Below are positions 1 through 1,046 of a DNA stretch of 1,046 bases, one piece after another. Source of the stretch: Escherichia coli. GTDB lineage: Bacteria; Pseudomonadota; Gammaproteobacteria; Enterobacterales; Enterobacteriaceae. Numbering within the stretch: the first letter of the stretch is position 1; each line of letters begins with the position of its first letter. The position numbers and the translations under genes are program-made. The stretch is from the NCBI RefSeq assembly GCF_003334305.1, contig NZ_QOWS01000063.1. One strand, written 5' to 3'. The notes beneath the pieces were generated by a model. The model worked only from the letters and a program-made list of their open reading frames with translations. It had not been told where the DNA came from and did not search any database.

Positions 1-92
1 GGCGCGCCAATTCTTACACCTGCCGAACCCTGGACAATGGGACCGCCATACTGAGTCATATCTCCCTGACGCGCCGCTGGTTTTCCGCTCAT
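1..92 (-). CDS. rhs: Rhs-family protein with N-terminal PAAR domain, first 30 codons only (3'-partial; continues beyond the left edge). Likely a T6SS cargo toxin carried on the VgrG tip.
   Basis: Seen in sequence: ATG at 92..90 (minus strand) opens a frame reading MSGKPAARQGDMTQYGGPIVQGSAGVRIGA(P) with no stop before the window edge. It contains a literal P-A-A-R tetrapeptide at residues 5-8 followed by a GG-x-I-x-x-GS-x-x-V-x-IG pattern typical of PAAR-domain starts. From memory this N-terminus matches that of Escherichia coli Rhs core proteins; the specific paralogue cannot be assigned from 30 residues. It lies 66 bp downstream of the vgrG stop on the same strand. This ORF is absent from the supplied track because it is short and runs off the edge. 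Confidence 0.85.
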   Translation of the reverse strand, partial: MSGKPAARQGDMTQYGGPIVQGSAGVRIGA

Positions 93-99
93 GATTCAA

Positions 100-105
100 T
101 TCCTT
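100..105 (-). promoter_or_regulatory. Shine-Dalgarno sequence for the rhs start codon
   Basis: Minus-strand AAGGAA (plus-strand ttcctt at 100-105) sits 7 nt upstream of the ATG at 92..90 (spacer ATTGAAT), a good match in composition and spacing to an enterobacterial ribosome-binding site. Confidence 0.55.
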
Positions 106-158
106 CTTCTGTTTATTTTTAATGCTTGTTTGTTACTGAATACCGAACAGGTACGGGA

Positions 159-1046
159 TCAGTACTCTCTCATATCCGGCGTATCCTGCTTTTCATCAGG
201 GGTCTTCGGTGGGGATTTCGAGGCTGCACAGTTCCAGTTAATCAACAGTGAGTCACCATTAACCTGCTCCTTACCCTGCAAATGAATTTTTGTGCCGTTG
301 AGAAAAATTTGTCCGTCCTTCGTCAGCACCAGCCTTGCCTTACCACAGCAGAGCTCCAGATGCTCACCGGCGGAGTAAATCGCGGTCTGCCCGGTATCAT
401 CCTTTTTCGTTTTACCAACGGTGAAGGTAACGTTATTTCCGACTTTGACGTCATAACCCAGCCCGACCCTCAACGATTTATGCAAACCGATCTGCGAGGA
501 CTGCATCAGAGCCACCGAAGTGTTCATAATGCCACCTACCGTCGTCTGGTACGCCACGCCCACGGTCAGCGCACGAACAAGTCCAATCGTTTCCACCTGA
601 ACAGAACCCACGTTAATGATCTGGTTACTGCCCACCGTCTCTATCTGGTTAACGCCCACCGTCTGTATCTGATTGTTGGTAACCGCAATCATCTGATTGT
701 TGCCAATGGTCTCAGCATGGTTGTTTATCACATCCGTGGTGCGGTTATTCAGCACCTCGGTGTTCATGTTCTTCTGCGCGTGGATGTAGACCTGTTCTTT
801 CCCTGTCGCATCGTCAAACTTCAGTTCATTAAACCCGCTGCCCTTATAGGTTTTCGAACGAATGGTCATCTGCGTCTTTGTTCCCGGCAGGCTGCCGGGT
901 GTGCGGTTTTCCTGGTGGTAGGTACGCCCCATAATAATCGGCTGGTCCGGATCGCCGTTGAGGAAGTCCACAATCACCTCCTGACCCACACGCGGTATCG
1001 CCAGGTGGCCAAAACCGGTGCCTGCCCACGCCTGTGCCACACGGAT
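159..1046 (-). CDS. vgrG: T6SS spike protein VgrG, C-terminal portion (5'-partial; N-terminus lies beyond the right edge). Stop codon TGA at 159-161.
   Basis: Seen in sequence: the 293-aa ORF 159..1040 stays open to the window edge (codons 1041-1046 read I-R in frame; codon 1038-1040 is GTG, so the track's M is an internal Val). The translation contains the VgrG/gp5 OB-fold region motif (R)VAQAWAGTGFG...PRVGQEVIVDFLNGDPDQPIIMGRTY, then regularly spaced Val-Gly octapeptide repeats (TTDVINNH/AETIGNNQ/MIAVTNNQ/IQTVGVNQ/IETVGSNQ/IINVGSVQ/VETIGLVR) typical of the gp5-like beta-helix, then a ~100-aa C-terminal region ending ...SKSPPKTPDEKQDTPDMREY*. Family assignment is from recalled knowledge of VgrG/Rhs-associated vgr proteins; no search was run. 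Confidence 0.92.
   Translation of the reverse strand: MRVAQAWAGTGFGHLAIPRVGQEVIVDFLNGDPDQPIIMGRTYHQENRTPGSLPGTKTQMTIRSKTYKGSGFNELKFDDATGKEQVYIHAQKNMNTEVLNNRTTDVINNHAETIGNNQMIAVTNNQIQTVGVNQIETVGSNQIINVGSVQVETIGLVRALTVGVAYQTTVGGIMNTSVALMQSSQIGLHKSLRVGLGYDVKVGNNVTFTVGKTKKDDTGQTAIYSAGEHLELCCGKARLVLTKDGQIFLNGTKIHLQGKEQVNGDSLLINWNCAASKSPPKTPDEKQDTPDMREY
573..740 (-). repeat. Intragenic 24-nt (8-codon) tandem repeats encoding the VgrG gp5-like beta-helix, seven units
   Basis: Seen in sequence: consecutive 24-nt units at 573-596, 597-620, 621-644, 645-668, 669-692, 693-716 and 717-740 each encode an octapeptide ending in Q/H/R with V/I-G spacing. Units 621-644 (ctggttactgcccaccgtctctat) and 645-668 (ctggttaacgcccaccgtctgtat) match at 21 of 24 positions. 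This is a coding repeat inside vgrG, not an independent element. Confidence 0.7.

What the first reader, a model, noticed from the sequence alone, without database searches (positions are those of the whole stretch)
57..92. Two candidate start codons for rhs
ATG at 92 gives MSGKPAARQGD... and has a well-spaced AAGGAA ribosome-binding site. An in-frame ATG at 59 gives MTQYGG... and is preceded by AGGGAG with only a 2-nt spacer. Starting at 59 would remove the PAAR tetrapeptide itself. Automated annotation could pick either, which changes whether the first PAAR motif is annotated as present.
Basis: seen in the sequence. Interest (0 to 1): 0.2.

Follow-up and report, generated by a model that had tools for sequence, protein, structure and literature searches.

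The report
Rhs start codon is ATG 92
The E. coli Rhs toxin gene in this window starts at the upstream ATG (position 92, minus strand), which keeps its single PAAR motif; the second ATG at 59 is just an ordinary internal methionine codon.

Summary
On the minus strand, ATG 92-90 (MSGKPAARQGD...) and an in-frame ATG 59-57 (codon 12, MTQYGG...) both exist. Their SD-like hexamers are AAGGAA with a 7-nt spacer and AGGGAG with a 2-nt spacer. The window is the vgrG-rhs junction of the E. coli RhsE locus.

All comparative evidence favours ATG 92:
- RefSeq annotates it, and the NCBIfam RHS_core model starts there.
- A TGA lies two codons upstream.
- Across eight loci from five genera with unrelated upstream genes, homology begins at this ATG (27% identity upstream, 83% in codons 1-11).
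- Codons 2-11 vary mainly at third positions.
- A GGA-type SD is kept 6-9 nt upstream.
- G3, K4, P5, A6, A7, R8 and D11 are near-invariant family-wide and align to the interior of three-unit PAAR domains in relatives.

Met12 is replaced by A, L, K, R or G in many relatives, and AGGGAG is not conserved; it comes from the Q-G-D codons.

Gene callers almost always choose ATG 92. I found two clean miscalls at a downstream Met and one forced by a 2-nt deletion in the assembly.

One correction: PAAR at residues 5-8 is the only PAAR tetrapeptide in the protein, not the "first".

This is ordinary and already correctly annotated.

The parts
90..92 (-). Initiation codon ATG of the rhs (RHS element core protein) gene, codon 1
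   Evidence: It is the first ATG/GTG/TTG codon after the in-frame TGA at 98-96. RefSeq places the CDS start here (L001 6955), and rhsD of BL21 starts at the same ATG. NCBIfam NF041261 profile position 1 aligns here. Homology among 8 loci begins here.
100..105 (-). Shine-Dalgarno sequence AAGGAA (GAAGGA core), 7 nt before ATG 92, in an A-rich, unstructured leader
   Evidence: Anti-SD duplex energy is -5.7 kcal/mol at a spacing of 7 nt. An AAGG/AGGA element is present 6-9 nt upstream of the start in all 8 loci, although the rest of the upstream DNA is unrelated. The leader shows no significant structure (z = +1.07).
69..80 (-). Codons 5-8, encoding the only PAAR tetrapeptide of the protein
   Evidence: Translation. 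Regex over the full 1417-aa protein finds one PAAR. P5, A6, A7 and R8 are present in 101-106 of about 109 family N-termini.
57..59 (-). Internal Met codon (codon 12), not a start codon
   Evidence: It is GCC, GGC or CTG in Yokenella, C. amalonaticus and C. portucalensis. The column is Met in 65 of 112 occupied rows, and otherwise A, L, K, R or G. None of 120 near-homologue representatives starts here.
62..67 (-). SD-like hexamer AGGGAG formed by codons CAG-GGA-GAT (Q9-G10-D11), only 2 nt from ATG 59
   Evidence: Duplex energy is -8.2 kcal/mol, but the spacing is 1-2 nt. The Gly10 wobble base is A, G, C or T in homologues, so the hexamer is not conserved. 39% of synonymous codings do as well.
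1..92 (-). 5' end of the rhs CDS (codons 1-30 and part of 31), encoding the single PAAR-like unit (residues 2-29)
   Evidence: Residues 2-29 align to the last PAAR unit of 4JIV (67-93) and SalCis10 (71-98), and to the third unit of three-unit relatives.
93..158 (-). 66-nt vgrG-rhs intergenic spacer
   Evidence: It lies between the vgrG stop and the rhs start. It has no promoter-like or terminator-like site and no Rfam match.
159..1046 (-). 3' part of vgrG (T6SS spike protein), with its TGA stop at 161-159
   Evidence: ORF list. RefSeq annotates it as 'type VI secretion system tip protein VgrG'. TIGR03361/TIGR01646 match the C-terminal part of those models.

Best explanation
ATG 92-90 on the minus strand is the single functional initiation codon of an E. 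coli rhs gene (RhsE-locus type) that lies 66 nt downstream of vgrG. The ribosome is recruited by the GAAGGA Shine-Dalgarno 7 nt upstream, in an A-rich, unstructured leader. Translation yields MSGKPAARQGD..., so the protein begins directly with its one PAAR-like unit (residues 2-29). By analogy with Tse5, this unit is the module that docks the toxin on the VgrG spike. ATG 59-57 is the ordinary internal codon Met12. The AGGGAG in front of it is a by-product of the codons for the conserved Q-G-D and lies too close (2 nt) to act as an SD.

Shown here: the sequence features, annotation practice, conservation, and where homology begins.
Inferred: actual ribosome usage, VgrG docking, and N-terminal cleavage at N47|P48.
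For: 1. ORF logic. A TGA lies two codons upstream, and ATG 92 is the first ATG/GTG/TTG codon in the ORF.
2. Curated annotation. PGAP starts the CDS here in strain A7 and at the same ATG in BL21 rhsD. The NCBIfam RHS_core profile aligns position 1 to this Met, while a Met12-start protein aligns from profile position 12.
3. Homology boundary. I compared 8 loci (E. coli x3, E. cloacae, Yokenella, two Citrobacter, Salmonella) whose upstream genes are unrelated (vgrG, ybbP, MFS, hydrolase, LysR). Ungapped identity is 27% at -60..-16 and 83% in codons 1-11. The megablast match to rhsD starts exactly at this ATG (H27-H29).
4. Protein-level selection on codons 2-11. Variable sites by codon position are 2, 2 and 7. 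Pairwise codon differences are 100 synonymous against 40 non-synonymous, compared with 58:69 for codons 12-17.
5. Family-wide conservation. G3, K4, P5, A6, A7, R8 and D11 are near-invariant. They align with internal residues, the start of unit 3, in relatives that have complete three-unit PAAR domains, where translation of that stretch is not in doubt.
6. A GGA-type SD is kept 6-9 nt upstream of this ATG in all 8 loci.
7. Gene calls. About 112 of 120 representatives start M[SG]GKPAAR, and 82 of 121 distinct N-termini start at residue 1.
8. [quoted passage not shown] Its P48 aligns with P48 here.
Against: - There is no direct experimental mapping of the N-terminus or of initiation for this gene. 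Literature searches found none.
- The anti-SD pairing in front of ATG 59 is nominally stronger than that in front of ATG 92 (-8.2 against -5.7 kcal/mol).
- Met12 is the commonest residue in its column (65 of 112).
- Some gene callers did choose the downstream Met (P0145, P0233).
Confidence: 0.95

Rival explanations
1. Dual initiation. ATG 92 is the main start, but ATG 59 is also used at a low level and yields a minor Rhs isoform that lacks the PAAR tetrapeptide, for example a non-secreted form.
For: There is an SD-like AGGGAG with strong anti-SD pairing (-8.2 kcal/mol). E. cloacae also has a G-rich SD-like stretch there (-8.4). Met is the majority residue at position 12.
Against: - The spacer is only 2 nt. 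From established knowledge of E. coli initiation, optimal SD-to-start spacing is about 5-9 nt and such short spacings initiate very poorly.
- The hexamer is lost through synonymous Gly10 changes in most homologues.
- Met12 is A, G, L, K or R in many relatives, so no conserved function can depend on it.
- 39% of synonymous codings of the conserved peptide give an equal or better SD-like match.
Confidence: 0.03
2. ATG 59 is the true and only start, and codons 1-11 are untranslated leader.
For: Only the SD-like hexamer and a few gene calls that start at the downstream Met (P0145, P0233, P0238, P0242).
Against: - Codons 2-11 show a synonymous-dominated substitution pattern.
- They encode the most conserved residues of the N-terminus.
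- They are homologous to internal residues of three-unit PAAR domains.
- Three genera have no start codon at position 12.
- The two clean downstream-Met calls have intact in-frame MGGGKPAAR or MGKPAAR codons with an SD upstream.
- P0242 starts at this Met because of a 2-nt deletion in the assembly.
Confidence: 0.01

Closest known systems
E. coli RHS element core proteins (RhsA-E; NCBIfam NF041261 'RHS_core')
   Same: The full-length protein from the identical locus scores 2675.8 bits against a cut-off of 2000 and aligns 1-1257 to profile 1-1261. The first 92 nt of the CDS are 100% identical to rhsD of BL21. The locus lies between yncH and pptA, which from my own knowledge is the RhsE position of K-12.
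   Different: Nothing relevant to the start codon differs. Here the gene sits behind an intact vgrG, whereas rhsD of BL21 follows ybbP.
Pseudomonas aeruginosa Tse5 (PDB 8CP6; PMC10684867)
   Same: Both have a short N-terminal fragment of about 47 residues that carries one PAAR-like unit, followed by the DUF6531 plug. Tse5 chain B begins at P48 of PVNPMLG, which aligns to P48 of PVNPLLG here (E = 7.5e-17). [quoted passage not shown]
   Different: The residue before the cleavage site is N47 here and K47 in Tse5. Cleavage has not been tested for the E. coli protein. The C-terminal toxin is different.
Canonical three-repeat PAAR proteins (Pfam PF05488; PDB 4JIV)
   Same: Residues 2-29 (GKPAARxGD...GG.IvqGs..V.IG) match one PAAR repeat unit, namely the last unit of 4JIV (67-93, E = 0.033) and of SalCis10 (71-98, E = 0.027). 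They also match the third unit of three-unit Rhs relatives.
   Different: There is one unit instead of three. The Pfam match is below significance (E = 0.14).

Membership tests
Canonical SD-led bacterial translation start (applied to ATG 92) | Start codon that is first in the ORF, with an in-frame stop upstream | tested here: met
   TGA at 98-96, two codons upstream; no other ATG, GTG or TTG lies between.
Canonical SD-led bacterial translation start (applied to ATG 92) | SD complementary to the 16S 3' end at about 5-9 nt spacing, conserved in homologues | tested here: met
   GAAGGA, -5.7 kcal/mol, 7-nt spacer. An AAGG/AGGA element lies 6-9 nt upstream in 8 of 8 loci.
Canonical SD-led bacterial translation start (applied to ATG 92) | Amino-acid-level conservation begins at this codon | tested here: met
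   27% identity upstream against 83% in codons 1-11. Synonymous to non-synonymous differences are 100:40 in codons 2-11. 82 of 121 distinct N-termini start here.
Canonical SD-led bacterial translation start (applied to ATG 92) | Experimentally observed initiation or N-terminus | not testable with these tools
   No paper in the searchable library contains the N-terminal string MSGKPAAR, and none pairs retapamulin ribosome profiling with a K-12 rhs gene name.
Canonical SD-led bacterial translation start (applied to ATG 59) | SD at functional spacing | tested here: not met
   AGGGAG ends 2 nt before the ATG.
Canonical SD-led bacterial translation start (applied to ATG 59) | Start codon and SD conserved in homologues | tested here: not met
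   Codon 12 is GCC, GGC or CTG in 3 of 8 loci, and the hexamer is broken by Gly10 wobble changes. Column 12 is Met in 65 of 112 rows.
RHS element core protein (NCBIfam NF041261) | Full-length score above the curated cut-off (2000 bits), aligned from profile position 1 | tested here: met
   2675.8 bits, residues 1-1257 to profile 1-1261, for the CDS of the 100%-identical locus L001. The window itself holds only codons 1-30.
PAAR domain (Pfam PF05488) | Significant match to the Pfam model | tested here: not met
   Best hits have E = 0.14 (residues 2-20) and E = 1.4 (residues 9-29).
PAAR domain (Pfam PF05488) | Three PAAR repeat units forming the cone | tested here: not met
   There is a single PAAR tetrapeptide in 1417 aa. 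The unit aligns with unit 3 of three-unit relatives.
Tse5-type Rhs N-terminal fragment | About 47-residue N-terminal piece ending just before a P-V-N-P motif at the start of DUF6531 | tested here: met
   DUF6531 covers residues 46-123. Query residue 48 aligns to residue 1 of Tse5 chain B. Cleavage in Tse5 is at K47|P48 (PMC10684867).
Tse5-type Rhs N-terminal fragment | Autoproteolytic cleavage and a requirement of the fragment for T6SS export | not testable with these tools
   This needs biochemistry and competition assays.

The most novel reading that the evidence does not exclude
In the E. coli lineage only, the internal ATG 59 with its strong but tightly spaced AGGGAG supports low-level secondary initiation. 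This would produce an Rhs isoform without the PAAR tetrapeptide that cannot dock on VgrG.
Probability: 0.02. Interest if true: 0.3.

Novelty: already known. Interest (0 to 1): 0.06.

Why it matters
It matters only for annotation hygiene. A start miscalled at Met12, or at another downstream Met, deletes the sole PAAR tetrapeptide. That motif is the marker by which these Rhs toxins are recognised as T6SS spike-borne effectors. Such miscalls occur at a low rate in public gene predictions. For this window, the reference annotation is already correct.

Tried and rejected
- Literature search for direct evidence on the start. No searchable paper contains the string MSGKPAAR, and no paper pairs retapamulin profiling with K-12 rhs gene names. 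A search on Rhs-element terms (vgrE, rhsE, core ORF) gave nothing useful.
- mRNA folding around both ATGs. There is no significant structure (z = +1.07), so folding does not discriminate between them.
- Promoter/terminator scan of window 1-400 found 0 sites. An Rfam scan of the whole window found 0 matches at E <= 1. There is no sign of a regulatory RNA or an independent promoter in the 66-nt spacer.
- Anti-SD duplex energy alone would favour ATG 59. I rejected it as a criterion because of the 2-nt spacing, and because G-rich coding of A-A-R-Q-G-D gives such values in 39% of synonymous recodings.
- A start further upstream is excluded by the TGA at 98-96.
- PDB sequence search with residues 1-64 gave only marginal hits to single PAAR units (E about 0.03). 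These are useful for defining the unit boundaries but do not prove domain membership.

Full report
**What is in the window.** Both genes lie on the minus strand. An ORF runs from the window edge at 1046 down to a TGA at 161-159. It is the 3' part of a vgrG gene. A 66-nt spacer (158-93) follows, and then an ORF that starts at ATG 92-90 and runs off the window at position 1. The whole window is 100% identical to E. coli strain A7 (NZ_CP028767). There it lies between yncH and pptA and is annotated 'type VI secretion system tip protein VgrG' followed by 'RHS element core protein'. From my own knowledge, this is the RhsE position of K-12. 4050 of 5426 complete E. coli genomes hold a match to at least part of the window, and 2713 hold at least 80% of it.

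**Check of the observation.** Every sequence statement in the finding is correct once read on the minus strand.
- ATG 92-90 is preceded by AAGGAA (105-100) and a 7-nt spacer.
- ATG 59-57 is in frame, as codon 12, and is preceded by AGGGAG (67-62) and a 2-nt spacer.
- PAAR is codons 5-8 (80-69).
- A TGA lies two codons upstream of ATG 92, and no GTG or TTG lies in frame within the first 30 codons. These are therefore the only two candidates.

The configuration is not unusual.
- About one gene in three is expected to have a Met within codons 2-15 (analytic estimate at an assumed 2.8% Met frequency).
- 39% of all synonymous codings of A-A-R-Q-G-D pair with the anti-SD at least as well as the observed one.
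- 2 of the 17 internal in-frame ATGs of this same rhs ORF have an equally good SD-like match upstream.

**Which ATG is the start.**

*Annotation.* PGAP starts the CDS at the position-92 ATG in strain A7 (L001 6955). It uses the same ATG for rhsD of BL21(DE3). The curated NCBIfam model NF041261 (RHS_core) aligns its position 1 to this Met. A protein truncated to start at Met12 aligns from profile position 12.

*Homology boundary.* I fetched rhs 5' regions from E. cloacae, Yokenella, Citrobacter amalonaticus, C. portucalensis, Salmonella Enteritidis and a second E. coli paralogue. In most of these the upstream gene is not vgrG but an MFS transporter, a hydrolase or a LysR regulator. In the 8-sequence alignment, ungapped identity is 27% at -60..-16 and 83% over codons 1-11. 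The megablast match of the window to rhsD begins exactly at the ATG (H27-H29).

*Selection on codons 2-11.* Variable sites fall 2, 2 and 7 on codon positions 1, 2 and 3. Pairwise codon differences are 100 synonymous to 40 non-synonymous. For codons 12-17 the ratio is 58:69. The stretch before Met12 is therefore under stronger protein-level constraint than the stretch after it.

*The ribosome-binding site.* An AAGG/AGGA element sits 6-9 nt before the ATG in all eight loci, although the rest of the upstream DNA is unrelated.

*The alternative start is not conserved.* Codon 12 is GCC, GGC or CTG in three genera. The AGGGAG is destroyed by wobble changes in Gly10 (GGG, GGC, GGT) or by G10D in most homologues.

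**Wider family.** A word-indexed search gave 120 listed cluster representatives. About 112 of them begin M[SG]GKPAAR and none begins at MTQY. An exhaustive phmmer search of 1.84 billion representatives added more distant relatives. Across 121 distinct N-terminal segments:
- 82 start exactly at residue 1.
- G3, K4, P5, A6, A7, R8 and D11 are near-invariant.
- Column 12 is Met in 65 of 112 occupied rows, and otherwise A, L, K, R or G.

Several relatives (P0172, P0199, P0211, P0225) carry a complete three-unit PAAR domain. The E. coli residues 2-29 align to their third unit, so 'GKPAARxxD' is internal protein sequence there. This agrees with the marginal PDB matches of residues 2-29 to the last unit of 4JIV (67-93) and SalCis10 (71-98).

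**Do gene callers ever pick the downstream Met?** They do, but rarely.
- P0145 (847 aa) starts at the Met12 equivalent, and P0233 (1145 aa) starts at a Met aligned to residue 9.
- In both, the DNA shows intact in-frame upstream codons (ATG GGC GGC GGA AAA CCG GCG GCG CGG..., and ATG GGC AAG CCA GCA GCC AGG) with an SD in front. These are miscalls.
- P0242 starts at the downstream Met because its assembly has a 2-nt deletion in codons 6-7.
- P0238 also starts there and reads as frameshifted, but I did not examine its DNA.

**What the N-terminus is.**
- Pfam finds DUF6531 at residues 46-123. It gives only sub-threshold PAAR_motif hits (E = 0.14 and 1.4) at residues 2-29.
- The 1417-aa protein has a single PAAR tetrapeptide.
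- The closest solved relative is P. aeruginosa Tse5. Its structure chain begins at P48 of PVNPMLG, which aligns to P48 of PVNPLLG here (E = 7.5e-17).
[quoted passage not shown] Its last 18 residues are anchored inside the shell, and N-terminal sequencing mapped cleavage at K47|P48 (PMC10684867).
- By analogy, only about 29 residues of the E. coli fragment are free to contact VgrG. A Met12 start would delete over a third of them, including the motif. This last step is inference.

**Mechanism.** Transcription probably continues from vgrG across the 66-nt spacer. No terminator-like site, promoter-like site or Rfam element is found there. The 30S subunit binds GAAGGA in an A-rich, unstructured leader and initiates at ATG 92. 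ATG 59 is read as Met12 by elongating ribosomes. Actual ribosome usage was not measured and remains inferred.

**Verdict.** ATG 92 is the start, and the reference annotation already has it. The correction is that the PAAR at residues 5-8 is the only one, not the first. This is an ordinary, already-known feature of low interest.

Noticed in passing
window 6-89 (minus strand; Rhs residues 2-29), and L001 6955-11208: The E. coli Rhs core has only one PAAR-like unit, and only one PAAR tetrapeptide in 1417 aa. Pfam's PAAR model is not significant on it. Relatives P0172, P0199, P0211 and P0225 have three units, and the E. coli unit aligns to their third. How one unit would cap a trimeric VgrG tip is not explained by anything I ran.
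   Followed up: partly
L009 565-603; L010 580-603; L011 570-603: Public gene predictions contain Rhs start miscalls. P0145 and P0233 begin at a downstream Met although intact MGGGKPAAR or MGKPAAR codons with an SD lie upstream. P0242 begins at the Met12 equivalent because its assembly has a 2-nt deletion in codons 6-7.
   Followed up: yes
L003-L006 (1-1200 of each): In E. cloacae, Yokenella and two Citrobacter species, the homologous rhs gene follows an MFS transporter, an alpha/beta-hydrolase or a LysR regulator rather than vgrG. The intergenic gaps are about 160-330 nt. These are orphan rhs genes, like those of K-12.
   Followed up: no
window 162-227 (minus strand; last ~22 codons of vgrG) and spacer 93-158: Matches to other vgrG paralogues (83% identity) stop at query 820, which is about window 227. 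The VgrG C-terminal tail (NWNCAASKSPPKTPDEKQDTPDMREY) and the spacer are therefore specific to this locus, while the rhs similarity resumes exactly at the ATG. This gives a mosaic junction.
   Followed up: no
window 91-285, + strand: A 64-aa ORF (MIQFLLLFIFNACLLL...) runs antisense across the rhs start, the spacer and the vgrG 3' end. Its hydrophobic start is simply the complement of the A-rich leader, so it is probably spurious. RefSeq does not annotate it.
   Followed up: no
P0104, P0116: Two predicted proteins begin at Met43 (MTSG[NH]PVNP...), just before the presumed N47|P48 cleavage site. They are probably truncated or miscalled genes. I did not examine their DNA.
   Followed up: no
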